A DNA stretch of 64,000 bases, from contig NW_027362765.1 of NCBI RefSeq assembly GCF_046119375.1, positions 205,840,001 through 205,904,000 on the forward strand. Reading direction: 5' to 3'. Below, piece after piece: positions 8,758-64,000 of this stretch (the stretch's first letter is position 1; each line of letters opens with the position of its first letter). Source of the stretch: Phyllobates terribilis (Eukaryota). The notes under the pieces are model-generated. The model did no database searches, had not been told where the DNA came from, and saw only the letters and a list, made by a program, of their open reading frames with translations. The translations under genes and the position numbers were made by a program.

Positions 8758-8830
8758 AAACCGCGCGCCTGCATTTTGAAGCTTTTTTTTAAGCTTTTTT
8801 CACTGTTTTCAGAACATTAACAATAAGAAC

Positions 8831-9793
8831 ATGGAAGAGTCCAGGAGCCATTTGGTGAGCTGCATATCCTGCTACATGTTCACAGACTTGCCAGTGGAAA
8901 AGCCAAACTTCACATGCCAGAAATGCAAGCTTGTGTCCCTGTTGGAGGAAAAGTTGCGAAATCTAGGAGAGAGGTTAACTACCTTGAAAATCATTAAGGA
9001 AGGTGAAGAGTTCTTAGACAGAGCAGAATTATCTCTTCATGATTCAGAAAGAGAAGAAATTCGAACTGCACCTGACGAAACAGAGGAATGGAAGCATGTG
9101 ACCCACAGAAGCAGGAGGATCGAGAGGCAGTCAGCACCCATACTGCTCAGGAACCAGTACCAGGCTCTCACGCAGGAGAACCATGAAGAAATACAGCAAA
9201 ATAAGACTTTGCCAGCAATGAATAACCTTGTAAGCCCTCAGAATCCTCCTGGATGGAGAAAGAAGAATGTTGTGAAGAAAAAACGGAGAGTGGTGGTCAT
9301 GGGGGATTCCCTGTTAAGAGGAACAGAGGCCGCTATCTGCAGACCAGACATAACCTCAAGAGAAATGTGCTGTCTTCCAGGAGCAAAAATTAAAGATGTG
9401 TCTGACAGGATATCAAGACTCTTCAGACCTACAGATCACTACCCATTCCTGCTAATACATGTGGGGACAAATGACACCGCAAGAAAGGACCTGGAAACCA
9501 TCTGCAGTGACTTTGAAGACTTAGGCAAGAAAGTGAAAGAATTGGGAGCGCAGGTGGTCTTCTCATCCATCCTCCCAGTGGATGGCCATGGAACAATGAG
9601 GTGGAATAAGATTCTACAGGTGAACAACTGGCTACGTCGATGGTGCCGTCAACAAGGATTTGGATTTCTGGATCACGGAATGAATTACCTATACGATGGA
9701 CTACTTGCTAGAGATGGGATGCACCTTACGAAGACTGGAAAACATGTATTTGGAAGTCGCCTTGCTACACTCATCAGAAGAGCTTTAAACTAG
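8831..9793 (+). CDS. CR1 ORF1p (320 aa): Cys-rich/coiled-coil N-terminus plus SGNH/GDSL esterase domain
   Basis: Intact ORF with CISC...CQKC, GDSLLRG, HVGTND and DGMHL motifs, ending RALN* as is typical for CR1. Confidence 0.9.
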   Translation: MEESRSHLVSCISCYMFTDLPVEKPNFTCQKCKLVSLLEEKLRNLGERLTTLKIIKEGEEFLDRAELSLHDSEREEIRTAPDETEEWKHVTHRSRRIERQSAPILLRNQYQALTQENHEEIQQNKTLPAMNNLVSPQNPPGWRKKNVVKKKRRVVVMGDSLLRGTEAAICRPDITSREMCCLPGAKIKDVSDRISRLFRPTDHYPFLLIHVGTNDTARKDLETICSDFEDLGKKVKELGAQVVFSSILPVDGHGTMRWNKILQVNNWLRRWCRQQGFGFLDHGMNYLYDGLLARDGMHLTKTGKHVFGSRLATLIRRALN

Positions 9794-9915
9794 AACAATG
9801 TGGGAAGGGAAGCAAAAGGCCAGAAAAAGCCATACAGCTGACAAATATTATTGAGATCTCTGCTACTGGAAGTGGAAAGGAAGAACAAAGACAAAACAAT
9901 TTAAATAATAAAAAT

Positions 9916-12702
9916 ATGGGAGGAAGAGAAACCAATCACAAACTAAAATGTTTTTATACAAATGCACAAAGCATGGGCAACAAACAAGGAGAATTGGAAC
10001 TACTAATGCAGGAAAAGGAATATGATGTCATTGGAATCACTGAAACTTGGTGGGACGATACACATGATTGGAATAAAAGGCTAAAAGGCTACAACTTATT
10101 TGCAAGAAACAGACTTGATAAATGAGGAGGTGTTGCATTGTATGTTAGAAAAGCGTATATCTGCACAGAGATTGAAGCTTCAGAGACTGGGAGTACTGTG
10201 GAAACTGTTTGGGTAAGAATACAAGGAGAGAACAACGGAAAGGACACCATTGTAGGCATTTACTACAGGCCACCTGGGCAAGCTGAAGATATGGATGAAC
10301 TCTTTATGTATCAAATGACCAAGTTCTCCAAAAAATATGACGTAGTGGTCATGGGAGATTTCAACTATCCAGACATTTGTTGGGAATCTCTCTCAAGTAA
10401 AACTAACAGGTCAAGCAAATTCTTATCCTCTCTTGCTGACAACTTTATCTTCCAAAAGGTAGGGGAGTAAACAAGGGGATCTGCTACTTTGGATCTAATC
10501 CTAATAAACAGGGAGGAAATGGTTGAGGAGGTAAAGGTGGCTGGGACCCTAGGAGGCAGCGATCATGCTATTATAGAATTTTGGATAACTAGAGGAGGAA
10601 GACATGTGAAGACTCAAACTTCAAGGTTAGATTTTAGAAAGGCAGATTTTAAGAGACTCAGAAAGAGAATAGGAGGGATCCAATGGCTGGATGTCCTTAA
10701 GGACAAAAATGTCCAGGAAGGATGGGAAATTTTTAAAAATGAGATTCTCAAAGCACAATCGTTAACAATCCCGAAAAGTAGGAAGAATGGGAAGCATTTA
10801 AGGAAACCAGGATGGATGAACACAGAACTTAAACACATGCTAAAAAGAAAGAAAGAAATGTTTATTAAATGGAAAGAGGGAGGCATATCTAAAGAAGATT
10901 ATAATGCAGTCTGCAGATCCTGCAGGGCACGTATCAGGTTAGCTAAAGCGGACAATGAATTAAGGCTTGCAAGAGATGTCAAAAGCAATAAAAAAGGATT
11001 TTGGGGGTATGTCAAAAGTAAAAGAAAAGTCAAAGATGCTATAGGATTTTTACAGGATGAAAATGGAGAAATGGTAAGAGAGGATGTTGAGAAGGCCGAA
11101 CTTTTTAATTCCTATTTTGCATCTGTTTTCTCTCAGAAAGAAAATGTAACATCAACTGATCTTCACTGTCCTTTTAAAGGAATAGAGGAATCCAAGTTAT
11201 CTGTAAACAGAAAGATTGTGAGGGAATATTTAGCTAACATAAATGAGTTCAAGTCTCCAGGTCCAGATGAATTACACCCCAGAGTACTGAAGGAGATCGT
11301 AGAAGAAATTTTAGAACCACTCTCCATAATCTTTGAAAATTCTTGGAGAACAGGAGAAGTCCCAGAAGACTGGAGAAGAGCAAATGTTGTTCCTATGTTC
11401 AAAAAGGGGAAGAAGGTGGACCCAGGGAACTATAGGCCGGTGAGTCTGACTTCTATACCAGGAAAGATCTTTGAACAAATTATTAAACAACATGTATGTA
11501 AGTAAATGGATAAGAATGAAGTGATTAATCAGAGTCAGCATGGGTTTGTAACTAACAAGTCATGTCAGACTAACTTAATTTCCTTCTATGACAGAATCAC
11601 TGACTGGGTGGATCAGGGAAATGCTGTAGATATAGTATATCTTGACTTCAGCAAAGCATTTGACAAAGTATCTCACACCATCCTTATTGAAAAAATGACC
11701 AAGTATGCAATGGACCAGGCAACTGTTAGGTGGATTCATAACTGGCTTAGTGATCGGACTCAAAGGGTGGTTGTAAATGGCTTCACATCCAGCTGGATGA
11801 ATGTCTCAAGTGGGGTACCACAGGGCTCCGTCCTGGGACCTGTATTGTTCAACATCTTTATCAATGATTTAGATGAAGGAATTGAGGGTAAACTGATTAA
11901 ATTTGCTGATGACACAAAGCTAGGAGGGATAGCTAATACTAGAGAAGAGAGAGAGAGGATTCAAAAAGACCTAAATAAACTGGAGCAGTGGGCAGCAACC
12001 AACAGAATGGTTTTTAACAGGGAAAAATGCAAAGTACTACATCTGGGCAATAAAAATGAAAAAAGCATATACAGAATGGGAGGAATAGAGCTAAGCAACA
12101 GTACATGTGAAAAAGACTTAGGTATACTAATAGATCATAGACTGAACATGAGTCAACAGTGTGATGCAGCAGCAAAAAAGGCAAATACAATTCTGGGATG
12201 TATTAACAGAAGCATACAGTCTAGATCACGTGAAGTCATTATCGGTCTTTACTCCTCTTTGGTCAGACCTCATCTGGAATACTGTGTACAGTTTTGGGCA
12301 CCACATTTTAAAAAAGACATAGACAAACTAGAGCAAGTTCAGAGAAGAGCGACCAGAATGGTGACTGGTCTGCAAACCATGTCCTATGAGGAACGGTTGC
12401 AGGATTTGGGAATGTTTAGCTTGCAAAAAAGAAGACTGAGAGGAGACTTAATAGCTGTCTACAAATATGTCAAGGGCTGTCACATTGTAGAAGGATCATC
12501 TTTATTCTCATTTGCACAAGGAAAGACTAGAAGCAATGGGATGAAACTAAATGGGAGGAGACACAGATTAGATATTAGAAAAAACTTTTTGACAGTTAGG
12601 GTGATTAATGAGTGGAACAGGCTGCCACGAGAGGTGGTGAGTTCCCCTTCAATAGACGTCTTCAAACAGAGGCTGGACAGACATCTGTCTGAGATGATCT
12701 AG
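9916..12702 (+). pseudogene. CR1 ORF2 (APE endonuclease + reverse transcriptase) with three in-frame stops
   Basis: Four ORF-track pieces share one frame. APE motifs YTNAQS, GITETWW, MGDFN and SDH are present, as are RT motifs GVPQGSVLGP and FADD. Stops fall at 10123, 10468 and 11503, with no frameshifts. Confidence 0.95.
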
Positions 12703-26092: not shown

Positions 26093-26448
26093 AATGGGTT
26101 TTTCCAAGACTTTAATACTGATCAATCCTCATGATAGGTCATCAATACCACATTAGTAGGGGTCTGACTCCTGATCCTGACACCCCAATCTATCAGCTGA
26201 TTGAAGATCCCGCAGTGCACCAGGACTAGCACAGCTCCACAAATTATGTAGTGGCCATGAATAACTGGACATATGAGCAGTTAGATTAAGCATGCAGCCA
26301 CTTCACACAGAGCTTTGTCACTTCTGGTTTTCTATGGCACCTTAAATCAACTGATAAGTAGGGGACTGGGAGTTAGATCTTCAATATCAGTATGGTGAGG
26401 GTCTAACGTAAGGATAGGTCATCGATATTAAATTCCTGGAATATCTCT
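26093..26448. mobile_element. Degenerate T2-type MITE
   Basis: Imperfect TIRs (gggtttttccaagactttaata / tattaaattcctggaatatctct|ttaa). Confidence 0.5.
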
Positions 26449-26532
26449 TTAATAAAACAACTGTAATATTAATGGCACGTTGTAGCTGGAGTCACTGCTA
26501 CAGATTTTGGTGTTTGGAGATTGTGGTGTCTC

Positions 26533-29169
26533 AAGAAAGCACATTAGAGGAGAAAGTGGACCCATTGGGACTCCATGAACATCCACCAAGAAGGCACCAT
26601 AGAGAAGAAAATGGACCCATTGGGGCTCCATGAACCACCACCAAGAAAGTACCATAGAGAAGAAAATGGACTTATTGGGACTCTATGAACCACCACCAAG
26701 AAAGCTCCATAGAGAAGAAAATGGACCCATTAGGACTTCATGAACCACCACCAAGAAAGCACCATAGAGAAAAAAATGGACCTATTAGGACTTCATGAAC
26801 CACCACCAAGAAAGCACTATAGAGAATAAAATGGACCTATTGGGACTCCATGAACCACCACCAAGAAAACACTATAGAGAAGAAAATGGACTTATTGGGA
26901 CTCCATGAACCACCACCAAGAAAGCACCATAGAGAAGAAAATGGACCCATTAGGACTTCATGAACCACCACCAAGAAAGCACTATAGAGAAGAAAATTGA
27001 CTTATTGGGACTCGATGAACCACCACCAAGAAAGCACCATAGAGAAGAAAATGGACCTATTGAGACTCAATGAATCACCACCAAAAAAGCACCATAGAGA
27101 AGAAAATGGACCCACTGGGACTCCATGAACCACCACCAGGAAAGCACCATAGAGAAGAAAATGGACCCATTGGGACTCCATGAACCACCACCAAGAAAGC
27201 ACCATAGAGAAGAAAATGGACCCATTGGGGCTCCATGAACCACCACCAAGAAAGTACCATAGAGAAGAAAATGGACTTATTGGGACTCGATGAACCACCA
27301 CCAAGAAAGTACCATAGAGAAGAAAATGGACTTATTGGGACTCGATGAACCACCACCAAGAAAGCACGATAGAGAAGAAAATGGACCCACTGGGACTTCA
27401 TGAACCACCACCAGGAAAGCACCATAGAGAAGAAAATGGACCCATTGGTACTCCATGAACCACCACCAAGAAAGTACCATAGAGAAGAAAATGGACTTAT
27501 TGGGACTCTATGAACCACCACCAAGAAAGCACCATAGAGAAGAAAATGGACCCATTAGGACTTCATGAACCACCACCAAGAAAGCACCATAGAGAAGAAA
27601 ATGGACCCATTAGGACTTCATGAACCACCACCAAGAAAGCACCATAGACAAAAAAATGGACCTATTAGGACTTCATGAACCACCGCCAAGAAAGCACTAT
27701 AGAGAATAAAATGGACATATTGGGACTCCATGAACCACCACCAAGAAAACACTATAGAGAAGAAAATGGACTTATTGGGACTCCATGAACCACCACCAAG
27801 AAAGCACCATAGAGAAGAAAATGGACCCATTAGGACTTGATGAACCACCACCAAGAAAGCACTATAGAGTAGAAAATGGACTTATTGGGACTTGATGAAA
27901 CACCACCAAGAAAGCACCATAGAGAAGAAAATGGACCTGTTGAGACTCAATGAATCACCACCAAGAAAGCACCATAGAGAAGAAAATGGACCCACTGGGA
28001 CTCCATGAACCACCACCAGGAAAGCACCATAGAGAAGAAAATGGACCCATTGGGACTCCATGAACCACCACCAAGAAAGCACCATAGAGAAGAAAATGGA
28101 CCCATTAGGACTTCCTGAACCACCACCAAGAAAGCACTATAGAGAAGAAAATGGACCTATTGGGACTCCATGAACCACCACCAAGAAAGCACTATAGAGA
28201 AGAAAATGGACTTATTGTGACTCCATTAACCACCACCAAGAAAGCACCATAGAGAATAAAATGGACCCATTAGGACTTCATGAACCACCACCAAGAAAGC
28301 ACTATAGAGGAGAAAATGGACTTATTGGGACTCCATGAACCACCACCAAGAAAGCACCATAGAGAAGAAAATGGACCTATTGGGACTCAAGGAATCACCA
28401 CCAAGAAAGCACCATAAGAGAAGAAAATGGACTTATTGGGACTCCATGAACCACCACCAAGAAAGCACCATAGAGAAGAAAATGGACTTATTGGGACTCC
28501 ATGAACCACCACCAAGAAAGCACCATAGAGAAGAAAATGGACCCACTGGGACTCCATGAACCACCACCCGGAAAGCACCATAGAGAAGAAAATGGACCCA
28601 TTGGGACTCCATGAACCACCACCAAGAAAGCACCATAGAGAAGAAAATGGACCCATTGGGACTCCATGAACCACCACCAAGAAAGCACCATAGAGAAGAA
28701 AATGGACCCATTGGGACTCCATGAACCACCACCAAGAAAGCATTATAGAGGAGAAAATGGAGTTATTGGGACTCCATGAACCACCACCAAGAAAGCACCA
28801 TAGAGAAGAAAATGGACCTATTGGGACTCAAGGAATCACCACCAAGAAAGCACCATAAGAGAAGAAAATGGACTTATTGGGACTCCATGAACCACCACCA
28901 AGAAAGCACCATAGAGAAGAAAATGGACTTATTGGGACTCCATGAACCACCACCAAGAAAGCACCATAGAGAAGAAAATGGACCCACTGGGACTCCATGA
29001 ACCACCACCCGGAAAGCACCATAGAGAAGAAAATGGACCCATTGGGACTCCATGAGCCACCACCAAGAAAGCACCATAGAGAAGAAAATGGACCCATTGG
29101 GACTCCATGAACCACCACCAAGAAAGCACCATAGAGAAGAAAATGGACCCATTGGGACTCCATGAACCA
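26533..29169 (+). repeat. 55-bp satellite array (~48 copies) with higher-order duplications
   Basis: Unit catagagaagaaaatggacccattgggactccatgaaccaccaccaagaaagcac, period 55 (26598, 26653, 26708). Variant patterns recur at offsets 880 and 441. Confidence 0.97.
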
Positions 29170-29963
29170 CTCATATATATGGATGTATTACCAATCACAA
29201 TAGATTTTGGATGAGATAAAATTGTCACAATATAATGTCCAGATATCTCAGATAAGTCTATAGTCAGAAGACATGCATGTGTCTTTAGGAATAGTGGTAA
29301 CATCTCGTACACCATGCTGTCATTTAATGACAGTTTAAGACCATCCCCCGTTAATGACACTAATCAGCAGGATTGTGTATGATTCCCTCACTTCACATCA
29401 TTTTGTGGCTCAATCAAGCTGCTAATGAGTTGTTAATTGATAATTAAAGACATGATTCCACGACGCATGCAGTATGTGAGTTGATAGAGATGGATTATGT
29501 CAGTAAGTGGCATTTACCAGAACTTTACATATATATGTAAACTTCTAGTAAATATCATTAGCAGAAATTAGGACAAGTCTTAATAGTTTTGCCGATAACT
29601 TGCCCAATGTGTAATTCCTGAAATTACAAAGACGAAAAAAAATAATATAGTGATTATGTTTGTAAAGCACTTTACAAATCAATGGCACTATATATATGAG
29701 TAAAATAATTATTTAAATAAATAAAATATAAGATTTAATCATTGATAGCAAATTATATACATAACAAAACAGCAAATAAATAAGGCATCAAATCCACAAA
29801 GTTGATTCTAAAAGCAGTCCTGTCACTGGATTAGATAAAATAGCTTCCAAATATTTTTTGCATTTCTCTAAATCATTGTCTCAACGCGTTTCTCTAGTCT
29901 AAATTGGGGCAGTTCAACAGATGGTGATTTAATTTATAAATAAAATGGGGTCTCATTTACATA

Positions 29964-31597
<1,634 letters not shown>

Positions 31598-32321
31598 TAG
31601 GAATAAATATACTTAACCCAGTAACTATCTGTCCTACACCGCTATATACTGTATATGTGCCTTACTGGGGTAACTCTATAGATTTGTTTGTAATGTATAT
31701 ATTACACTGTGGACAATCATTAGAAAACACTAACTTCTACATAACTGTACTCTCATTATGGAAATACAAGACGGCAAGTTTCCCAATACTGGATTGTATG
31801 ACTTTTTGCCTTTACCCAATAGGGTAAAAGACTGTCTGTTAAACCACATAGATTACATTTTGGCATCTGAACAACACATAGTTAGATCCCAATGATATCC
31901 TATGCAAAGCATCCACTGATTACTGCTCTGATGTCTATTTCATATTTACATCAGTCATTATTAAATGATAGTGATGTAAGTGATTTGTATGAACTGTATA
32001 CACTGTAATATATACACTACAAACAAATCTATAGAGTTATCCTGGTAAGGTATATATAGAGGTAAGCTACCTGTGTCTGTAACAGCCAGTCAAAAAGGGC
32101 TGTCAGACAAAAAGAGATTCCAGCTCAAAAAATTAAAATATAATCATTATTCGTGAATACATTCAAACCCACCAAAAAAGGGGAGGACACAGGATATGTC
32201 AACAATCCAAATAATAAATGGAGAAAATTATATATGCCACCCTCTCTTTAACAATGTATGCAAAAAAAGCAAATGGCATGGAACTATTGTAACCTGCTAT
32301 TATCAATATATAAGAAAGAAT

Positions 32322-41776: not shown

Positions 41777-44700
41777 CCGTATATTCCGGCGTATAAGACG
41801 ACCTGGTGTATAAGACGACCCCCCTACTTTCCTGTTAAAATATAGAGTTTAGGATATATTCACCGTATAAGACTACCCCTTTTCCAACGCATACCAAACA
41901 CCGGTAAAAATTTTAAAAAAACAGATTTGAATTTAACATGGTCCTTTTTTAATTTAAATTCTTATGACATGCAGGTATATAGCAGGAAAACTGTCACTCA
42001 TAAACATATTAAAATAGGGGGGACCCCACGTCATTTTTTTGGGGGGTCCCCCATTCTAATAGCTAGTAAAGGCTAGGTATTCAGCTGGGGGCTGATATTA
42101 GTAGCCTGGGAAGCTCCGTGGGTATTACCCCCTTCCCAGACTTCAAACATCTGCCCCAGCCGTCTGCTTAACCTCCGCTAGAGACTATAATGATGGTGGA
42201 TCCCACGCCAATTTTCTTTTTAAAAAATCCTTTATTTTAACACTAAATGACAATTGAGGGGTTAATAAAGATGCAGTCCCTAAATTATTATTAATTTTGT
42301 AATTAATTTTTCCCAAAAATGTTGACGTGGGCTTCGCCATATTTTTGTGTCCAGCCAGGTACAGCAGGCAGGAACGGGCTGCCCCCAACCACCAGCTGCC
42401 TATTTGTACCTGGCCGGACACAACAATATAGGGAAGCCCTTTTTTTTTTAATTATTTCATGAAATAATTAAAAAAAAAAAGACGTGGGGCTTCGCCCTAT
42501 TTTTGTGTCCAGCCAGGTACAACTAGGCAGCTGGGGGCTGGAATCTGCAGCGCAGGGAGGCCCAAGCTTTCTGGCCCCCCCCCCGCTGCAAATTGCAGTC
42601 CGCAGCCACCCCGGAAAATGGCGCGTTCATAGAAGCGCCATCTTCTGGCGCTGTACCCAACTCATCCAGGGCCCTGGTGCGGTGGCTCACTGGGTAATAA
42701 AGGGGTTAAGGCCAGCTTGGCATTATCAGCTGGCCCTAAGCCCGAAATTCATGGGGTCACGCCAATATTAGACATGACCACCATGAATTTCTAGTAAAGT
42801 AATTAAAAAAAACACAAACACCCAGAATAAAGTCCTTTAATTGAAATAAAGACACAATTTTTTAATGTTCTAAATTAAACTATACTTACCATCACGCCCA
42901 TTCCAGCTGAAGCCAACGATCTCCTGCAATAAAAGTAAAATAATAAAGCAACCTCATCCTTACCTCTCCATGGTTCCCAGGACCGGTCCAGCTCTGCTAC
43001 ATTCACATGACAGGCTGTACCGCAGCAGAACGCTGCCGTTCAGCTTGCCATGCGGCAGACACTGAGAAGCGCAGGCATGCTTGTGCTCCTCAGTGTCTGA
43101 CTGTGACGGCATCCAGATGAGCCGAGATCATGTCCAATGAACTCGGCTCACCTCATGCACGTCACTGACAGCGTGGGAAAATTCTCCTGCTCCCCGCATG
43201 CGCAGTAGAAGTTTCCCACGCTGTCAGTGACGGACGTCCAGGAGGTGAGCTGAGTTCATTGCCGGCTCATCTGGATGCCGTCACAGCGAGACACTGAGGA
43301 GCGCAAGCATGCCTGCGCTTCTCAGTGTCTGCGGGATGACAGGCTGGATGGCAGCGTTCTGCTGCGGTCCAGCCTGTCATCTCGATGTAGCAGAGCTGAA
43401 GCTGTCCTGGGAACCATGGAAAGGTAAGGATGATGTTGGTTTATTATTTTACTTTTATTGCAGGAGATCGTTGGCTTCAGCTGGAATGGGCGTGATGGTA
43501 AGTATGGTTTAATTTAGAACAATAAAGAATTGTGTGTTTATTTCAATTAAAGGACTTTATTCTGGGTGTTTGTGTTTTTTTTAACTTTTACTATGGGGTT
43601 AATAATGGGGGTGTCTTATAGACGCCTCTCCATTTCTAACCTGGGCTTGATGTCAGCTGGCATTATAAGCTGACATCAACCCCAGCCCTATTACCCCACT
43701 GCCACCGCACCAGGGCAGCGTGGAAGAGCGAGGCTAAGTGCCAGAATTGGCGCATCCTATGAATGCGCCATTTCTGGGGCGGCTGACGGCTGGTGTTTCT
43801 AGCCTGGGAGGGGGCCAATATTCATGGCTCCCTTCCTGGGCTATTAATATCAGCCCCCAGCTGTCTGCCTAGCCTTTGCTAGCTATTAAATTAGGGGGGA
43901 CCCCACGTCATTTTTTTGGGGGGGTCCCCCATTTTAATAGCTAGTAAAGGCTATGTATTCAGCTGGGGGCTGATATTAGTAGCCTGGGAAGCTCCGTGGG
44001 TATTACCCCCTTCCCAGGCTTCAAACATCTGCCCCAGCCGTCTGCTTAACCTCCGCTAGAGCCTAAAATTAAGGGGAACCCCACGCCAATTTTTTTTTAA
44101 ATAAATCCGTTATTTTAACACTAGATGACAAGTACAGTAACCAGCACTGTCACTGTACTTCATATATATGTGACTGACATGTTTCTATCTATCTAATCTA
44201 TGTGTGATGCTCTATCTTTCTGTTATAAATTGTCGGGTACAGATGCTGAATTGCCGGCCGGCTTTTTTAAAGAGACGGTGCATGAAAACACTATTATTTG
44301 TTTTAATAAATCCTTTACACTAAATGACAAGTACAGTAAGCAACACTGTCACTGTACTTCATATATATGTGACTGACATGTTTCTATCTATCTAATCTAT
44401 GTGTGATGCTCTATTCTTTCTATTCTAAATTGTCGGGTGCCGGCTTATGCCGCTGCTGAATTGCCGGCTTTTCATATATTGTCACAGAAGCGATGCGAAA
44501 TTCCCAGCTCCGGACACAGCGCAGCGCTTCTGTGACAAGTGAAAGCTGTCGGCACAGAAGCCCTGCGCTGTGTCCGGAGCTAGGAATACGCAGCGATGTG
44601 TCAGTTTCAGCACAGAAGCGCTGACTATCTGGACCTACCGCCGCCGTATTTTAACTCCCTCCACCTTATATTAACTCCGACATGGCAGGGATACGGCCAC

Positions 44701-45388: not shown

Positions 45389-45470
45389 GTGAGTACACCT
45401 TAGAGCACAAAGGTCGGCCTGTGTCCAAAGTGTTAGGAAAATTCAGACTACACCTGATTTGTATTATAAG

Positions 45471-47467
45471 TGTTATGCACACGCCCGGACTGACTGGCGT
45501 GTGCGTGTTTATGTAGTGATTCCACTGTGCCATGAACCGGAGAGTGCCTGGAGGGGCGTAACTAAGTATCTGCCCGATCCGACCAAGGTGGCACGACGGC
45601 ATACGACGCCAGTGCACCAAGGAGGAACCGAGCAGAGAGACCAGGTGCTACTCCAGGACAGACCCCGGACACGGCTGTTGACCCACACAGGGGAATACAG
45701 GAACAGACTGGTAGGCTGGCACAACTGGTATGCAGGCAGGCGGGTATGCAGGCAGGGGGGTACAGGCAAGCACAGCTAGAGTGCAGACAGGGAGGCACTA
45801 GCAGGTAGGAACACAGGCGGGATAGGACCCAGTACACACTGGGACTCAGGAACAATACAGGCAGAGGGGTACAGGCAAGCACAGCTAGAGTGCAGACAGG
45901 GAGGCACTAGCAGGTAGGGACACTGGCGGGATAGGACCCAGTACACACTGGGACTCAGGAACAGAACCACAGATGTGGCGGACAAACACAGCAGAGTGAG
46001 GCCGCCCAGAGAGGTGAGCGAGAACAGGGCAGGACAAAGCCGCCTGGAGCGGTGAGCAAGAGTAGAGCAGGACAAGGCCGCCAGGAGCGGTGAGCAAAGG
46101 GTCAGAGCTGAGCGAGACTGCCGGAGCAGTGAGCAAGAGTGGAGCAAGACGAGACCGCCTGGAGCGGTGAGCAAGAGTGGAGCAAGACTGCCGGAGCAGT
46201 GAGCAAAAGGATAACAGCGGAGCGAGACTGCCGGAGCAGTGAGCAAAAGGGTCAGAGCGGAGCAAGGCTGCCGGAGCAGCGAGCAAAGGAGTCAGAGCAG
46301 GCTAGAACCGCCGGAGCGGTAAGCAAAGGAGTCAGAGCAGGCTAGAACCGCCGGAGCGGTGAGCAAAGGAGTCAGAGCAGGCTAGAACCGCCGGAGCGGT
46401 GAGCAAAGGAGTCAGAGCAGGCTAGAACCGCCGGAGCGGTGAGCAAAGGAGTCAGAGCAGGCAAGGCTGAGCAGGGGGGACAGGGCTCTGTTCACACGGA
46501 ACAGACAGGAAGGGAAAGGCAGAGCCAGATACCCACAGGGTACTTGCAGTGAAGTAGCGAGTGGACCACAAACTCACAAACGGGAGTACAGAGACAACAA
46601 GCAGGAGTTAGGTACGAGTTCAGACTCTGCAGAAAAAGGAAGGGAACGGACATAGAGGCAAAACAGGTAAAGGATAGGAGAGAGTTCAGACTGGAACTGA
46701 GTGTATGGAGGAGACCGACACTGCAGCGGAATACAGGAGCGGGTCTGGGAATACGGCCCCCAGAGAGGCAGGATGAACAGGCAAGGAGCGTGTTCAGACA
46801 GGACAGACAAGATACAGGAGCGGGTCTAGGTAATCGGCCCCTAGAAGGCAGGAGGAACAGGCTAGGAGCGTGTTCAGACAGGACAGACAAGATACCAGAG
46901 CGGGTCTAGATAATCAGCCCCTAGAAGGCGGGAGGAACAGGCTAGGAGCGTGTTCAGACAGGCCTGGAAATACAGCCTCCAGGATAGGCAGACAAGAGAA
47001 CACAGACAGGACTCAGTTCAGACACGGGAACTGATACCGCAAGGCAGGAGACATAGACAGGACTCAGTTCAGACACGGGAACTGAAACCGCAAGGCAGGA
47101 GACAGACAGGACTCAGTTCAGACACGGGAACAGATACCGCAAAGCAGGAGACAAAGAACGGGACCTGGCACCTTCAGAGTGCAAGCACACACTGAAAGAA
47201 ACACTATGCTCAGGCAGGGATAGATGGGAGCAGCTGAGCTATATACCAGGTGACAGACAGCAATAGGCTGAGGACGCACAAGGGGTGTGACCCACAGCAG
47301 GTACAAAAAGCAGGAAGTGATCGGGCGCCGCCCTTAAGCAGCAGAAGCAGACACAAACAGACAGCATGGAGGGAAGCCAGAGAGACATTCTGGACTGGAG
47401 ATCAAGTGCGCGCTCTTGCACAGTGGGAGATGGACCACCATGCAAGGACGCCGCCAGGTATGTTACA
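45471..47467 (-). repeat. 3' LTR (1997 bp)
   Basis: Direct repeat of 49478-51594. Contains internal 109-, 40-, 80- and ~49-bp tandem arrays. Confidence 0.95.
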
Positions 47468-49338
47468 GTACCCCCCCCCTTACGCCCCCTCTTCTTCAGG
47501 CCTGCCAGAATCTTCCGCAGGGAATTCGAGGACCAGTCGTTCACTTCAAGGAGATCACTTCCACTGTCCACAGGAAAAACTGATCTCATCTGGTTAGCTA
47601 GGATGCTACCTCCTATCCAGCCATCCTCAGCAACAGACGAAACGGGTGGAGTACCAGGAACAGCACACAAGGAAGTCTCTCTCCACATATTTTCAGGTGG
47701 CACCCCAGAGGGTACAGGAGACAACTGGAAGTCCTTCACTGGGTTGGAGGGGGACAGAGACTTGAGGGTAATCTCTGCTTCGAGGTACATCTTGTCAAGC
47801 TTACAGGAAGAAATAGACGGGTTATCAGGTACATAATGAGGAAAAGTCACTGTCTCTTTGTTATCTGGTGGTACCCCGGAGGATTCAGGAAACAACTGGA
47901 GGTCCCCCGCCGGGTCAGAAGAGTGCAGAGGCTCAGAGAAAACATCTGCTTCAGAGTACACTAGGTCGGGCTCACTGGACGAAGCAGGCGAGGTATCGGG
48001 TACCGAGTATAGGAAAGTCTCTGTCCATTCACCACCAGGTGGCACCCCGAAGGGTTCTGGAGACAACTGGCGGTCCTCCGCCTGGTCAGAGGGGTGTAGA
48101 GACTCACGGGTAACCTCTGCTTCAGAGTACACTAGGTCGGACTCACTGGACGAAGCAAGCGAGGTATCAGATCCAGGATATAGGAAAGTCTCTGTCCATT
48201 CACCACCAGGTGGCACCCAGAAGGGTTCTGGAGAAAACTGGAGGTCCTCCGCCTGGTCGGAGGGGTGTAGAGACTCGGGAGTAACCTCTGCTTCGGAGTA
48301 CACTAGGTTGGACTCACTGGACGAAGCGAGCGAGGTATCAGGTACAGAGTATAGGAGAGTCTCTGTCCTTTCGCTACCAGGTAGCACCCCGAAGGGTTCA
48401 GGAGACAACTGGAGGTCCTCCGCCTGGTCGGAGGGGTGTAGAGACTCGGGGGTAACTACCACTTTGGGGTACCCTTTGTCAGGCTCACAGGACGAAGCGG
48501 ACAAAGTATTGAGTACCGGGTGTAGAGAAGTCTCTCTCCATTTGTCATCGAGTGGTATCCCGGAGGATTCAGGAGGCAACAGGGGGTCCTCCACCAGGTA
48601 GCAGAGGTGCACAGACTCTGAGGTAACCACAGCTTTGGAGCATCCTTGGACATGCACACCGGTAAAAGTGGGTGAAGCATCTGATGCCGGGTGCAGGAAG
48701 TTCTCCTGTGTGGAGTCTGGATGGGCAGAAGTCTCTTCGGGCAGGAGAACTGGTGCACTACCCACGCACATTACCAGTTGGGGCTTCTCCAGGATACAGG
48801 GAGATGAAGCTTCAGTAGGGACTTCAAGGTTGGGGTCAGGAGGTCTCAGGGAGGACAGACCCTGGCGTGACGGCTTGCCTCTACGTCTAGCACGTCTGGA
48901 CTGCCTCTTGAGGTTGGGAGAAGTATTCCGGAAAGCGTAGTCACCCTGTGAGGATTCTGGGTGGGCAGTAGTCTCATTGGGCTGGAGGACTATTGCGCTA
49001 CCCACACACATTACCCGTCGGGGCTGCTCCGGGATATTGGGAAGTGAAGCTTCAGCAGGGGCTTCAGGGTTAGGGTCCTCGAAGACCATACGAAAGGCCA
49101 CCAGGAAGGCCTGCAGGTCAAGGACGACAGGATCCCATGCTTCCCATAGGGGGGTGACCCATTTCAAGGCATCACCCGCTAGGTAGTCAATCATAAAGGC
49201 CACTTTAGCCCAATCTGAAGGAAAATAGAGAGGGTAGGCCTTAAAGTGTAGCATGCATTGCTCCACAAATGCACGACACTGTCTTGGATCCCCATAGTAA
49301 CGTGGCGGATCCGCAGGAACGAGAGCTGATAGATCCAT
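47239..49338 (-). CDS. 699-aa ORF: Ty3/Gypsy Gag capsid N-domain (PEG10/RTL/DUF4939-like), acidic Pro/Ser repeats and a degenerate integrase-chromodomain tail
   Basis: PPRYYGDPRQCRAFVEQC...AKVAFMIDYLAGDALKWVTPLWE...FLVAFRMVFEDP; six ~57-aa repeats (171-bp period at 47946, 48117, 48288); ends KKRGRKGGGTVT across the PPT and continues into the 3' LTR. Confidence 0.72.
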   Translation of the reverse strand: MDLSALVPADPPRYYGDPRQCRAFVEQCMLHFKAYPLYFPSDWAKVAFMIDYLAGDALKWVTPLWEAWDPVVLDLQAFLVAFRMVFEDPNPEAPAEASLPNIPEQPRRVMCVGSAIVLQPNETTAHPESSQGDYAFRNTSPNLKRQSRRARRRGKPSRQGLSSLRPPDPNLEVPTEASSPCILEKPQLVMCVGSAPVLLPEETSAHPDSTQENFLHPASDASPTFTGVHVQGCSKAVVTSESVHLCYLVEDPLLPPESSGIPLDDKWRETSLHPVLNTLSASSCEPDKGYPKVVVTPESLHPSDQAEDLQLSPEPFGVLPGSERTETLLYSVPDTSLASSSESNLVYSEAEVTPESLHPSDQAEDLQFSPEPFWVPPGGEWTETFLYPGSDTSLASSSESDLVYSEAEVTRESLHPSDQAEDRQLSPEPFGVPPGGEWTETFLYSVPDTSPASSSEPDLVYSEADVFSEPLHSSDPAGDLQLFPESSGVPPDNKETVTFPHYVPDNPSISSCKLDKMYLEAEITLKSLSPSNPVKDFQLSPVPSGVPPENMWRETSLCAVPGTPPVSSVAEDGWIGGSILANQMRSVFPVDSGSDLLEVNDWSSNSLRKILAGLKKRGRKGGGTVTYLAASLHGGPSPTVQERALDLQSRMSLWLPSMLSVCVCFCCLRAAPDHFLLFVPAVGHTPCASSAYCCLSPGI
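47471..47481 (-). other. Polypurine tract
   Basis: The minus strand reads AAGGGGGGGGG-TAC immediately before the 3' LTR (TGTAACA). Confidence 0.85.
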
Positions 49339-49465
49339 CTGGACGGTGCGTAATTCGCCTGGAACTCAGCTAAGGAAAAAAAAAATTTATTTATTTATTT
49401 TAATGCATGTATTCGCTGGAAAACTTCTCAGAGAGCGAAGGCCGTGGGGCTCAACGGGAACCATG

Positions 49466-49475
49466 GCCTGAGCAT
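49466..49475 (-). other. Primer-binding site, non-tRNA (self-priming type)
   Basis: Minus-strand ATGCTCAGGC lies 2 nt after the 5' LTR. It lacks the TGG start of a tRNA PBS and is complementary to LTR position 51342-51333. Confidence 0.7.
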
Positions 49476-49477
49476 GC

Positions 49478-51594
49478 TGTTATGCACACGCCCGGACTGA
49501 CTGGCGTGTGCGTGTTTATGTAGTGATTCCACTGTGCCATGAACCGGAGAGTGCCTGGAGGGGCGTAACTAAGTATCTGCCCGATCCGACCAAGGTGGCA
49601 CGACGGCATACGACGCCAGTGCACCAAGGAGGAACCGAGCAGAGAGACCAGGTGCTACTCCAGGACAGACCCCGGACACGGCTGTTGACCCACACAGGGG
49701 AATACAGGAACAGACTGGTAGGCTGGCACAACTGGTATGCAGGCAGGCGGGTATGCAGGCAGGGGGGTACAGGCAAGCACAGCTAGAGTGCAGACAGGGA
49801 GGCACTAGCAGGTAGGAACACAGGCGGGATAGGACCCAGTACACACTGGGACTCAGGAACAATACAGGCAGAGGGGTACAGGCAAGCACAGCTAGAGTGC
49901 AGACAGGGAGGCACTAGCAGGTAGGGACACTGGCGGGATAGGACCCAGTACACACTGGGACTCGGGAACAGAACCACAGATGTGGCGGACAAACACAGCA
50001 GAGTGAGGCCGCCCAGAGAGGTGAGCGAGAACAGGGCAGGACAAAGCCGCCTGGAGCGGTGAGCAAGAGTAGAGCAGGACAAGGCCGCCAGGAGCGGTGA
50101 GCAAAGGGTCAGAGCTGAGCGAGACTGCCGGAGCAGTGAGCAAGAGTGGAGCAAGACGAGACCGCCTGGAGCGGTGAGCAAGAGTGGAGCAAGACTGCCG
50201 GAGCAGTGAGCAAAAGGATAACAGCGGAGCGAGACTGCCGGAGCAGTGAGCAAAAGGGTCAGAGCGGAGCAAGGCTGCCGGAGCAGCGAGCAAAGGAGTC
50301 AGAGCAGGCTAGAACCGCCAGAGCGGTAAGCAAAGGAGTCAGAGCAGGCTAGAACCGCCGGAGCGGTGAGCAAAGGAGTCAGAGCAGGCTAGAACCGCCG
50401 GAGCGGTGAGCAAAGGAGTCAGAGCAGGCTAGAACCGCCGGAGCGGTGAGCAAAGGAGTCAGAGCAGGCTAGAACCGCCGGAGCGGTGAGCAAAGGAGTC
50501 AGAGCAGGCAAGGCTGAGCAGGGGGGACAGGGCTCTGTTCACACGGAACAGACAGGAAGGGAAAGGCAGAGCCAGATACCCACAGGGTACTTGCAGTGAA
50601 GTAGCGAGTGGACCACAAACTCACAAACGGGAGTACAGAGACAACAAGCAGGAGTTAGGTACGAGTTCAGACTCTGCAGAAAAAGGAAGGGAATGGACAT
50701 AGAGGCAAAACAGGTAAAGGATAGGAGAGAGTTCAGACTGGAACTGAGTGTATGGAGGAGACCGACACTGCAGCGGAATACAGGAGCGGGTCTGGGAATA
50801 CGGCCCCCAGAGAGGCAGGATGAACAGGCAAGGAGCGTGTTCAGACAGGACAGACAAGATACAGGAGCGGGTCTAGGTAATCGGCCCCTAGAAGGCAGGA
50901 GGAACAGGCTAGGAGCGTGTTCAGACAGGACAGACAAGATACCGGAGCGGGTCTAGGTAATCGGCCCCTAGAAGGCGGGAGGAACAGGCTAGGAGCGTGT
51001 TCAGACAGGACAGACAAGATACCGGAGCGGGTCTAGATAATCGGCCCCTAGAAGGCGGGAGGAACAGGCTAGGAGCGTGTTCAGACAGGCCTGGAAATAC
51101 AGCCTCCAGGATAGGCAGACAAGAGAACACAGACAGGACTCAGTTCAGACACGGGAACTGATACCGCAAGGCAGGAGACATAGACAGGACTCAGTTCAGA
51201 CACGGGAACTGAAACCGCAAGGCAGGAGACAGACAGGACTCAGTTCAGACACGGGAACAGATACCGCAAAGCAGGAGACAAAGAACGGGACCTGGCACCT
51301 TCAGAGTGCAAGCACACACTGAAAGAAACACTATGCTCAGGCAGGGATAGATGGGAGCAGCTGAGCTATATACCAGGTGACAGACAGCAATAGGCTGAGG
51401 ACGCACAAGGGGTGTGACCCACAGCAGGTACAAAAAGCAGGAAGTGATCGGGCGCCGCCCTTAAGCAGCAGAAGCAGACACAAACAGACAGCATGGAGGG
51501 AAGCCAGAGAGACATTCTGGACAGGAGAACAAGTGCGCGCTCTTGCACAGTGGGAGATGAACCACCATGCAAGGACGCCGCCAGGTATGTTACA
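49478..51594 (-). repeat. 5' LTR (2117 bp)
   Basis: Differs from the 3' LTR by one extra 40-mer, one extra 80-mer and about 8 substitutions (manual count). Confidence 0.95.
51367..51372 (-). promoter_or_regulatory. Putative LTR TATA box (predicted TSS near 51342)
   Basis: TATATA lies ~220 bp inside the LTR start on the minus strand, 30 nt upstream of the PBS-complementary segment. Confidence 0.6.
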
Positions 51595-52517
51595 ATAAGC
51601 AAGAAAAATAAATCTCTCTTTTAATTCCCTCTTTCTGAATTGATTTTTATTGGAATGTTTTTATAACTTTGTCTTCATAAATTACAACACCAGTGTTGAC
51701 TTGTTTTTGAGCAATCTATAAAATCAGACGTAACTTTCTTTACAAAGTCCAGAGACCGTAACAATACCAGTAAAGAAGAATTTTACATCATTATAAAATG
51801 TTACATTCAGTTTTAAAAAATATATATATATTTTTCACATTAAGTTTGTTAATTAGGTGCATTACTCCATAGTCTGTGATATTCTGCCTTTTTGTTACAT
51901 TGAAACATGGCTGCCTTTGAATACAATGGGCATCATTCAGATGACCCATGGATGAGATCCAAATTCTATTTGTTTGAGGGTTTTTTGTTACAGATCTATT
52001 AATTTGAATTGGCAATTTTGATCATAAAATTGAATCAAACACAGAAATGTTTCCATTAGTTTCCCCATAGGCTATAGACTATAATTGGTATGTTTTCTAT
52101 CCATGATAGAACATGTATGTAAAAATGGACATCTGAATTAGACCTTACATTGGTAACATGAAGCTGTATGGAAGGGAGGGAGAGCAGGGGAAGACATAAT
52201 ATATATGCTAATCACTGGGGGATTGCTGGAGAAAAATATACTGCTGTCGAACAGGGGACCTCTGATGACTGTGTCCCACGCTGAAGGGAGGTGAACAGAT
52301 TGAACTAGACTTTCCTTCAGTAAGGATATGTTTCAGTTTTCTGCTCAAGTCCTTTATCTAAATACTTTGGTATTGCAGAGTAACTTCTTGGCACACCCAG
52401 CACTAATGGTGCACACAGGTACACATCTGGACCCAGGGCTGCATTGTCTACATGGAGGTGACTTGAAGGCAGCATCATATTTAAAACCAAAGCATTAGAA
52501 AGCAATTTTATTATTAA

Positions 52518-62628: not shown

Positions 62629-64000
62629 ATGGGCAATGTGAGTGTCAGGGGACGGGGAAGCAGACGTGATGGTGATGGTGCATGCAGAGGCTGAGCGAAT
62701 GGCCAAGCTGAAATTGTGCCATAACAAGCACCCACATCTTGTCACCCGGCCTTCCTGTCCCAATTACTAGGTGACCGCAGCACACCACTATTGAACCCAG
62801 AGCAGTGTCGAAAGGTTGTTGATTGGATAGCAGATAATGCTTCCAGTCATTTTGCCACCACCACCACCACCCTTTCTTTCACATGGTCAAGTTTCAGTAG
62901 CCGTGAGTCTGGACCGCATATTCCTCACCCTGATACTCCTTCCTCCCACCATGCCGAGTGCCCGGAGACAACTGATCCCACACTTGGACACTCCGAAGAG
63001 CTGTTCACTTTTCCATTTATAGATTCGGGCCTCTCAACCGACCCGTTTCAAGCAGGGCAAGAGAAGATCGCATGTAGCGATGCCCAAATATTTGAGCAGC
63101 CACGATCACATGAAGGCGATTGTGGGAAACTGTCACAAGAGGTGGATGATGATGAGACACAATTGCCAGAAAGTCAGGAGGAGGACCAGGGTGAGGAAGT
63201 GGAAGATGAGGTGGTGGAAGATGAAGTCTCTGACCCAACCTGGCAAGGTGACATGCAGAGCGAGGACAGCAGCACACAGTGGGAGGGAGGCATAGCACCA
63301 AAGCAGGCAGGAACAAACAGTGAAGTGGCCACAGACACAAGAAGGGCAACTGTTCCCCGGAACACAAACAAGACGGAAGTTGCCAGTACATCTGTTAGGT
63401 CTTCCCGAGTCTGTTTTTTTCTTAAAGACTGTGCAGAAAACCCCAAAAAGGCCATTTGCACTACCTGCCAGGCCACCATCAGCAGGGGTAGCAAAACTAA
63501 AAGCCTGACCATCACCAGCATGCTCAGGCACATGACAGCAAAGCACCCGACTAGGTGGGCCGAACAGTGTCTGCAGGGTGAAACCACTGCTTGTTCCGCT
63601 GTTGTGCGTGCACGCCAATCCCCTGTCCATAGCGCATGCGAAGATGACTCTCGCCCTGCACCTGTCATTGCGCACTCGCAACTACCACCATCAGCAAGCT
63701 TGTCCCAGCGCAGCATTCAGTTGTCTATACCCCAGTCATTGGAACGCAAGCACAAATACGCAGCCACCCACTCACAGGCCACACTACTAAACTCGCACCT
63801 TTCTCGAATGCTTGCGCTCGAAATGTTGCCTTTTAGGCTCGTGGAGACAGAAGATTTCCACAATCTGATGGCGGCGGCCGTCCCTTGGTCCCCAGCCGCC
63901 ACTATTTTTCCCGGTGTGCCGTCCCCGCATTACACAAGCACGTGTCCCAGAACATTAGCTGTACCCTCAACAACGCAGTTACTGGGAAGGTCCACATAAC
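62629..64000 (+). pseudogene. hAT transposase with BED zinc finger, disrupted
   Basis: The ATG at 62629 is in frame with ORF 62791 but has stops at 62692 and 62722. BED finger AICTTC...SMLRHMTAKH, then LALEMLPFRLVETEDF. A frameshift near 63885 restores VPSRHYFSRCAVPALHKHV. Confidence 0.88.

What the first reader, a model, noticed from the sequence alone, without database searches (positions are those of the whole stretch)
49466..51372. Tf1/sushi-type self-priming signature across a ~1.87-kb loop
Seen: the PBS (minus ATGCTCAGGC, 49475-49466) is not a TGG-type tRNA site. It is the exact complement of GCCTGAGCAT (51342-51333), which begins 30 nt after the LTR TATA box, where the transcript should start. 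Known: S. pombe Tf1 primes reverse transcription with its own first 11 nt, and this was proposed for vertebrate sushi-group elements. Inference: this non-autonomous element keeps tRNA-independent priming while looping out ~1.87 kb, far longer than in Tf1.
Basis: partly seen in the sequence, partly recalled or inferred. Interest (0 to 1): 0.8.

Follow-up and report, generated by a model that had tools for sequence, protein, structure and literature searches.

The report
Long-loop self-priming frog retrotransposon family
A young jumping-gene family with about 7,000 copies has no tRNA landing site; the site instead matches ten bases 1.0-2.2 kb upstream in its own terminal repeat, and relatives change both sides together, so it likely starts DNA copying with the tip of its own RNA, a trick proven in yeast Tf1 and already proposed for this vertebrate group.

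Summary
Observation confirmed. The window holds a young gag-only LTR element (minus strand 51594-45471; LTRs 2117 and 1997 nt, 8 mismatches; CTTAT duplication). Its PBS, ATGCTCAGGC, lies 2 nt after the 5' LTR, lacks TGG, and complements GCCTGAGCAT 30 nt after TATATA, 1857 nt upstream.

The genome holds 7,123 such LTR-PBS junctions and 34,694 TATA+primer sites. An older subfamily changes both sides (TTGCTCAGGC/GCCTGAGCAA). Eight further PBS variants in pol-bearing relatives each match their own LTR, across loops of 327-705 nt. A covarying U5 hairpin fits the Tf1 'pretzel'; the U5-leader helix is only weakly supported. No helper-primer footprint and no tRNA match were found, though the tRNA screen was incomplete.

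A self-derived primer is about 0.9 likely; fold-back versus sister-RNA priming is unresolved. Start site, cleavage and cDNA are untested. The mechanism is known for Tf1/sushi. The long loop is real but predicted to cost only ~1 kcal/mol more than in autonomous relatives. A candidate intron would remove the PBS from gag mRNA. The scan noted similar signatures in BEL/Pao and diatom copia. New variant; interest 0.4.

The parts
51595..51599 (-). Target-site duplication CTTAT, upstream copy
49478..51594 (-). 5' LTR, 2117 nt, TGTAAC...TAACA; only 11% A; swollen by tandem arrays of 51, 80, 40 and 109 nt
51367..51372 (-). TATA box (TATATA), 30 nt before the primer
   Evidence: 30-nt spacing in 98 of the first 100 listed genome matches despite divergent spacers
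51333..51342 (-). Predicted self-primer GCCTGAGCAT (predicted RNA nt 1-10; start site inferred)
49476..51332 (-). 1857-nt stretch between primer and PBS (rest of R, U5, 2-nt spacer); predicted template of strong-stop cDNA
   Evidence: 1000-2187 nt, median 1695, in 57 related copies
50619..50624 (-). Candidate splice donor GTGAGT, the only GT[AG]AG in R-U5 (untested)
49524..49545 (-). U5 strands GGTTCA and GGAATCA of a candidate U5-leader helix (weak support)
   Evidence: pair counts; no better than shuffles by energy
49484..49511 (-). U5 inverted-repeat hairpin GCACACGCC/GGCGTGTGC just before the LTR end
   Evidence: (A-U to U-A double change in 17 of 66 copies)
49466..49475 (-). PBS ATGCTCAGGC, 2 nt after the 5' LTR, no TGG
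49448..49463 (-). Leader strands TGGTTCC and TGAGCC of the candidate U5-leader helix
49370..49385 (-). Candidate splice acceptor (pyrimidine tract + AG) 31 nt before the gag ATG (untested)
   Evidence: sequence; present at -31 to -33 in 67 of 71 related copies with a located gag ATG
47239..49338 (-). Single 699-aa ORF: gag capsid-like DUF4939 N-terminus, 57-aa tandem repeats, reading into the 3' LTR and stopping in its TATA box; no pol
47471..47481 (-). Polypurine tract AAG9, 3 nt before the 3' LTR
45471..47467 (-). 3' LTR, 1997 nt; 8 mismatches to the 5' LTR plus one 80-nt and one 40-nt repeat-unit gap; second primer copy at 47215-47206
45466..45470 (-). Target-site duplication CTTAT, downstream copy

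Best explanation
This is a young, gag-only LTR retrotransposon of a ~7,000-copy chromovirus-related family whose primer site matches ten bases 30 nt behind its own TATA box, so it likely primes reverse transcription Tf1-style with the first ten bases of its own RNA, probably by folding back across a 1.86-kb loop. Shown: the anatomy, the complementarity, its covariation across families, the fixed TATA spacing and the U5 hairpin. Inferred steps: (1) transcription starts at the G at 51342; (2) nt 1-10 anneal to the PBS next to the U5 hairpin and possibly a U5-leader helix (the Tf1 'pretzel'); (3) RT/RNase H supplied in trans by an unidentified autonomous chromovirus cuts after the duplex, as in Tf1; (4) RT makes a ~1.86-kb strong-stop cDNA that jumps to the 3' R. 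The loop is long because tandem arrays expanded inside R/U5, and length is predicted to cost only logarithmically. A self-derived primer of either geometry (this or rival 1) is about 0.9 likely.
For: Exact 10-bp match behind TATA; 0 of 3000 shuffles. Long-LTR lineage: PBS first base A goes with primer last base T in 26 copies and T with A in 30, with 1 discordant among 57; this is probably one or few events, not 56. All 14 of 20 unselected T-type copies with a locatable 5' primer match perfectly. L249 carries a further change in the PBS and both LTRs, and L242 in the PBS and 5' LTR. Eight more PBS variants in pol-bearing relatives each match their own LTR behind a TATA-like box, weak in families B and D: 29 of 35 clean-ended DUF4939 loci give 10 bp or more, and 17 of 17 TSD-confirmed PPT loci give 9-11 bp. 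These families lie on separate branches of an RT tree; the three polyproteins scanned have RT-RH-IN-SH3_Tf2-chromodomain. TATA-to-primer distance is 30 nt in 98 of 100 listed matches although the spacer differs widely. U5 hairpin with a double change. Folding the 1925-nt primer-to-leader RNA gives the duplex at P 0.97-0.996.
Against: The start site is not observed: only assembled contigs of uncertain RNA status were available. The folding result is fragile: with 5 extra 5' bases, or with the RNA extended to 4.2 kb, the minimum-energy fold loses the duplex, and the program cannot model the pseudoknot. The U5-leader helix scores no better than shuffled leaders in this family (185 of 200 shuffles as good), and one hairpin pair is broken in 15 of 66 copies. 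Single-copy PBS mutants are mostly uncompensated: 0 of 20 with A-type LTRs and 2 of 16 T-type, as expected for decay after insertion. A second primer copy at the 3' R, 2.25 kb downstream, could compete. No close autonomous parent was found (gag 35-45% identical to the nearest pol-bearing families).
Confidence: 0.65

Rival explanations
1. Same primer, different geometry: the 5' ten bases come from a second, co-packaged RNA of the same family, so no 1.86-kb loop forms.
For: It predicts the same complementarity and covariation. The fold-back is not robust in folding runs. L237 has A-type LTRs, spacer and leader but a PBS identical to a T-type variant, two changes in a copy whose LTRs differ by 1 of 350 nt; this is what priming by another RNA would leave if the PBS is copied from the primer (one case).
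Against: Loop closure is cheap: about 12 kcal/mol against a -17.4 duplex. Only 1 of 100 listed non-A-type PBS junctions has the A-type spacer, so cross-subfamily priming is rare, though the subfamilies may not have been active together.
Confidence: 0.25
2. The primer is donated by the helper's RNA, for example family B (GCCTGAGTAT, one G-U wobble on this PBS), and the element's own match is vestigial.
For: Family B is of similar age (LTR pairs mostly 99-100% identical) and its primer would pair at -15.4 kcal/mol.
Against: Only 2 junctions genome-wide carry the B-type PBS ATACTCAGGC in this family's context, against 4 with the same G-to-A change at a control position; this test assumes the PBS is recopied from the primer. 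The family's own 5' end tracks its own PBS in both subfamilies.
Confidence: 0.05
3. A host tRNA, half-tRNA or other small RNA primes at this PBS, and the LTR match is incidental or structural.
For: The tRNA screen was incomplete: the Rfam search scored 63 of about 379,000 candidates, and the 12 loci scanned were all tRNA-Lys(TTT).
Against: No TGG in any of the 10 family-level PBS variants. The primer followed within 6-30 nt by a T-loop motif occurs once in the genome and is not a tRNA. One host RNA cannot follow ten different PBSs that each match their own LTR.
Confidence: 0.03
4. Chance match in a long LTR.
For: A 10-mer complement appears somewhere in 54 of 3000 shuffled LTRs.
Against: 0 of 3000 behind a TATA-like box; the match recurs with different letters in every family with a clean LTR end, apart from degenerate copies.
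Confidence: 0.01

Closest known systems
Tf1/Tf2 of Schizosaccharomyces pombe and Tj1 of S. japonicus
   Same: PBS complementary to the RNA 5' end instead of a tRNA. In Tf1 the first 11 bases pair and RNase H cuts between bases 11 and 12 (PMC7175516, passages). A three-duplex 'pretzel' with two helices flanking the PBS (PMC10085805, passages).
   Different: Duplex of 10 bp; loop of 1.0-2.2 kb, against a Tf1 LTR of a few hundred bases (recalled); no pol, so the cutting enzyme must come in trans; Tf1 is shown by experiment, this is not.
Vertebrate Tf1/sushi (V-clade) chromoviruses: sushi-ichi, Amn-ichi/ni/san; Butler et al. 2001
   Same: Self-priming is described as a common feature of the group, vertebrates included (PMC10085805, PMC6317226, PMC4600332, passages; Butler 2001 itself not seen). 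Gag groups with vertebrate chromovirus gags (weak support). LTR end CATAACA fits the Sushi CNTNACA motif (PMC3601003, passages).
   Different: Non-autonomous; 2-kb LTRs (mean Sushi training LTR 572 nt in PMC3601003); no AATAAA near the LTR end, unlike the Sushi profile; LTR start TGTAAC departs from TGTYANR; candidate intron spanning the PBS.
[quoted passage not shown]
   Same: Frog LTR elements without pol; 1A11 encodes a 71-kDa Gag-like protein (PMC4585706, passages), comparable to the 699-aa ORF here.
   Different: Sequence relationship not tested. Copy numbers there are tens to hundreds. That paper cites tRNA-Arg priming for Xretpos and assumes these elements are immobile, whereas this family has thousands of near-identical copies.
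Autonomous chromovirus families A-F in the same genome
   Same: Same geometry: PBS 1-2 nt after the LTR, 9-12 bp match to a G-starting stretch behind a TATA-like box.
   Different: They carry pol, have 420-870-nt LTRs and 327-705-nt loops; A, B and E have stronger U5-leader helices.

Membership tests
Tf1/sushi self-priming group | PBS not complementary to a tRNA 3' end (no TGG) | tested here: met
   PBS is GC-ATGCTCAGGC; none of 10 family-level variants has TGG
Tf1/sushi self-priming group | PBS not matched by a tRNA fragment | tested here: inconclusive
   Rfam search yielded only tRNA-Lys in the 12 loci scanned; primer + T-loop pattern gave 1 hit, not a tRNA
Tf1/sushi self-priming group | PBS complementary to a stretch of the own LTR behind the promoter, covarying across families | tested here: met
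Tf1/sushi self-priming group | That stretch is the actual RNA 5' end | not testable with these tools
   Only contigs of uncertain RNA status; inferred from the fixed 30-nt TATA spacing
Tf1/sushi self-priming group | Pretzel helix 1: U5 inverted-repeat hairpin next to the PBS | tested here: met
   561 of 593 cells paired, one double change in 17 of 66 copies, one pair broken in 15; -17.7 kcal/mol
Tf1/sushi self-priming group | Pretzel helix 2: U5-leader duplex | tested here: inconclusive
   458 of 462 and 378 of 396 cells paired with one-sided changes only; 185 of 200 shuffles as stable; better than shuffles in families A, B, E
Tf1/sushi self-priming group | RNase H cleavage releases the primer | not testable with these tools
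   Needs particle RNA or cDNA 5' ends
Chromovirus (Ty3/gypsy) autonomous element | Own pol with RT-RH-IN and a C-terminal chromodomain | tested here: not met
   No pol in the element; present in relatives L074, L143, L172. So it is a non-autonomous derivative, not an autonomous member
Chromovirus (Ty3/gypsy) lineage | Gag related to vertebrate chromovirus gag | tested here: met
   DUF4939 E 3.7e-6; 35-45% identity to gags of chromodomain-bearing families; exact branch weakly supported
LTR retrotransposon, integrase-inserted | TG...CA LTRs, 5-bp target-site duplication, PPT | tested here: met

The most novel reading that the evidence does not exclude
The 2-kb LTR is a splice switch built around a self-priming site. 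A conserved GTGAGT donor at 50624 and an acceptor at 49370 define a 1255-nt intron containing U5, the pretzel and the PBS, so spliced RNA makes Gag but cannot be reverse transcribed, while unspliced RNA folds its 5' tip across 1-2.2 kb and primes itself. The PBS is rewritten from the primer each cycle, which lets primer and PBS drift together through a dozen sequences in one genome and lets a pol-less passenger use any helper's RT.
Probability: 0.3. Interest if true: 0.6.

Novelty: new variant of a known kind. Interest (0 to 1): 0.4.

Why it matters
Self-priming is proven only in fission-yeast Tf1 and is proposed for vertebrate relatives from sequence. Here one genome gives ten family-level primer/PBS pairs, plus two single-copy compensated variants, with fixed promoter spacing: strong comparative support for the vertebrate case. 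It indicates that the mechanism tolerates 1-2.2 kb between primer and PBS and loss of pol. With about 35,000 promoter copies, the family makes the prediction cheap to test from natural RNA (cap site at +1, cut end at +11, 1.86-kb strong-stop cDNA). The mechanism itself would not surprise a specialist.

Tried and rejected
Start site and splicing from public runs: no RNA holder listed as such. Four contig sets laid on 47440-51800 show no start or end sites, and no joint at the candidate intron among the 15 of 61 joints shown; no evidence either way.

tRNA catalogue: only tRNA-Lys(TTT) in 12 of 30 loci scanned.

Protein homologues of the gag N-terminus at near lengths: none.

The metagenome scan gave 54 loci of 26-63% identity, which I did not analyse.

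PBS recopied from the primer as a general rule: only 2 of 36 PBS-mutant copies are compensated, so weak support only.

Loops of 2.1-2.4 kb in family A copies L025, L032 and L052 were dropped: their 3' LTRs are 0.7-0.9 kb, so these are probably later insertions.

The fourth motif match at 63520 has no similarity to the element.

Poly(A) signal: no AATAAA in the LTR; CATAAA near the end occurs in only 21 of 79 copies, so the R/U5 border is unplaced.

Primary Levin papers (PMC1369541, PMC1563812, PMC109269, PMC230564) were not held; Butler 2001 was not seen. No supplements were read; those of PMC6317226 may list loop lengths for predicted self-priming elements.

Full report
OBSERVATION. The minus strand carries a complete LTR element from 51594 to 45471: 5' LTR 51594-49478 (2117 nt), 3' LTR 47467-45471 (1997 nt), TG...CA ends, a CTTAT target-site duplication and an AAG9 polypurine tract. 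The LTRs differ by 8 mismatches in 1997 aligned bases plus one 80-nt and one 40-nt repeat-unit gap. The interior holds one 699-aa ORF whose only Pfam match is DUF4939 (E 3.7e-6, just under the cut-off); there is no pol. Two bases after the 5' LTR lies ATGCTCAGGC (49475-49466), the exact complement of GCCTGAGCAT at 51342-51333, which starts 30 nt after TATATA; 1857 nt separate the two strands. In 3000 shuffles a 10-mer match occurred anywhere 54 times and behind a TATA-like box never. The host is inferred to be a frog: the closest named homologues of a related polyprotein are anuran, up to 84% identical. The genome G000 has 10.6 Gb.

THE FAMILY. All 150 scored matches to the gag N-terminus were 100% identical. 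The LTR-end/PBS/leader pattern with the PBS core left free matches 7,123 places, control 0. Of these, 1,506 have a non-A first PBS base, mostly TTGCTCAGGC among the 100 listed. TATA followed within 16-32 nt by the primer matches 34,694 places, control 18. In the first 100 listed the distance is 30 nt in 98 and 29 nt in 2, although the spacer differs strongly between subfamilies. That is what a start site fixed by a TATA box predicts, but it remains an inference.

COVARIATION IN THE LONG-LTR LINEAGE. Of 20 near-identical copies, 17 had clean LTR ends; 15 matched over 10 bp and 2 had a PBS substitution. Of 20 unselected T-type copies, 14 had a locatable 5' primer and all 14 read GCCTGAGCAA, matching TTGCTCAGGC. 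Over 57 of 66 copies with a locatable 5' primer, PBS A pairs with primer T in 26, T with A in 30, and 1 is discordant; 41 are perfect, and the set includes copies picked for deviant PBSs. Loops run 1000-2187 nt. This change is probably one or few events. Among 36 copies with a mutated PBS, 2 are compensated (L249 in both LTRs, L242 in the 5' LTR); 34 are not, including all 20 with A-type LTRs. So the idea that the PBS is recopied from the primer has only weak support here.

COVARIATION ACROSS FAMILIES. From a DUF4939 search (46,492 candidates, 150 scored) I fetched 80 loci. Of these, 34 gave no LTR pair and 11 no clean end; of the 35 left, 29 match over 10 bp or more and 32 over 8 or more at the promoter-proximal site. 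From PPT patterns I fetched 40 loci. All 17 with a TSD-confirmed LTR pair match over 9-11 bp; 12 had no 5' LTR and 11 no TSD-confirmed end. Five of those 11 checked by hand gave 10, 10, 9, 7 bp and none. Besides the two long-LTR types, the PBS variants are ATACTCTAGC, ATACTCAAGC, ATACTCAGGC, ATACACAAGC, TTTCACCGAC, AAGTCCAGC, ATGTCCAGC and TATAACCGGC (three of them single copies), with loops of 327-705 nt in intact LTRs. They fall on two well-supported branches of an RT tree among frog and fish sequences, and the three polyproteins scanned have RT, RNase H, integrase, SH3_Tf2-1 and a chromodomain. The long-LTR gag is a long branch with no close pol-bearing parent, so the helper is unidentified.

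STRUCTURE. Tf1 needs a three-duplex pretzel (PMC10085805, passages). A 9-bp hairpin at the U5 end is paired in 561 of 593 cells, with an A-U to U-A change in 17 of 66 copies and one pair broken in 15. A U5-leader helix is compatible in 95-99% of cells with one-sided changes only, but is no more stable than shuffled leaders in this family (185 of 200), unlike in families A, B and E. The primer duplex is -17.4 kcal/mol. Jacobson-Stockmayer loop cost is 11.0 kcal/mol at 657 nt and 12.2 at 1857 nt, so the long loop is not a physical puzzle. Whole-RNA folding gave the duplex at P above 0.96 for the exact 5' end but lost it with 5 extra bases or a 4.2-kb RNA; it is inconclusive.

RIVALS. tRNA priming: no TGG; the tRNA set obtained was only Lys(TTT); a primer + T-loop pattern gave one hit, not a tRNA. 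Helper-donated primer: family B's primer would pair with one wobble, but only 2 junctions carry its PBS against 4 at a control position. Sister-RNA priming cannot be told from fold-back; L237 is a single possible footprint. Public runs gave no start site or splice information.

AN ADDED FEATURE. R-U5 has one GT[AG]AG, at 50624, more conserved than its flanks between subfamilies, and a pyrimidine tract + AG sits 31-33 nt before the gag ATG in 67 of 71 copies. Splicing would remove 1255 nt including the PBS. This is untested, and six conserved bases are weak evidence.

WHAT IS KNOWN. Self-priming was shown for Tf1 and is described as common to the Tf1/sushi group, vertebrates included (PMC7175516, PMC10085805, PMC6317226, PMC4600332, PMC5341516; passages seen, primary papers not held). 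Gag-only frog LTR elements are known (1A11 and others, PMC4585706, passages). Searches for 'Xenopus + LTR retrotransposon + self-priming' (0 papers), for self-primer with chromovirus, vertebrate and non-autonomous (listing only) and for self-priming with long LTR, strong-stop and spliced (2 HIV papers, listing only) showed no report of a non-autonomous or kilobase-loop self-priming vertebrate element in the open library; subscription papers, Butler 2001 and Repbase were not searchable. Earlier scan notes report similar signatures in BEL/Pao and diatom copia elements, none in this group; I did not test them, and here the primer is contiguous in the DNA rather than made by splicing.

VERDICT. 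It works like Tf1 by every sequence test that gave a clear result; it is a non-autonomous derivative of the vertebrate chromoviruses rather than an autonomous member. A self-derived primer is about 0.9 likely, fold-back geometry about 0.65. New variant of a known kind; interest 0.4.

Noticed in passing
window 50624-49370 (minus): Candidate 1255-nt intron spanning U5 and the PBS. The donor GTGAGT is 94-100% conserved in T-type copies against 77-81% in its flanks, but is GTGAAT in 7 of 41 A-type copies; the acceptor is present in 67 of 71.
   Followed up: partly
L237 (G000:C1:382545271-382552771): Young A-type copy whose PBS equals a T-type variant (two changes) while spacer, LTRs and leader are A-type: a possible footprint of priming by another RNA.
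   Followed up: partly
G000:C2:456619959-456856074, C1:781914978-781919475, C1:86492385-86504724: Family copies spaced about 4.1 kb apart, consistent with tandem elements sharing an LTR; tandem Tf elements are described in PMC11042837 (passages).
   Followed up: no
window 45471-51594: 34,694 TATA+primer sites against 7,123 LTR-PBS junctions imply roughly 20,000 solo or orphan LTRs; at about 2 kb each the family would fill on the order of 60-70 Mb (inference).
   Followed up: no
window 47239-47467: The gag ORF runs 229 nt into the 3' LTR and stops inside the TATA box (ATA TAG); open frames of copies with an identical N-terminus range from 115 to 887 aa.
   Followed up: no
window 49464-49387: A GCCATGG start directly behind the PBS opens a 25-aa frame; its phase to gag varies with homopolymer length among copies.
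   Followed up: partly
L068, L074 (LTR ends): In families A and B a U5 stretch (GGTATCC, GGGTATCT) could pair with the spacer and PBS itself, an alternative fold that would hide the PBS (read).
   Followed up: no
L171, L180: Internally deleted copies of families E and D with near-identical LTRs keep their PBS/primer match.
   Followed up: no
window 8780-12702 (+): Broken non-LTR-type element: esterase/OSK-like ORF followed by an RVT_1 region.
   Followed up: no
window 30369-31109 (-): Tc1-like transposase fragment, with 138-nt inverted repeats at 29962-30099 and 31462-31599.
   Followed up: no
window 26422-29300: Array of about 50 units of 55 nt.
   Followed up: no
window 42803-43584: 322-nt inverted repeat, 93% complementary, 138 nt apart.
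   Followed up: no
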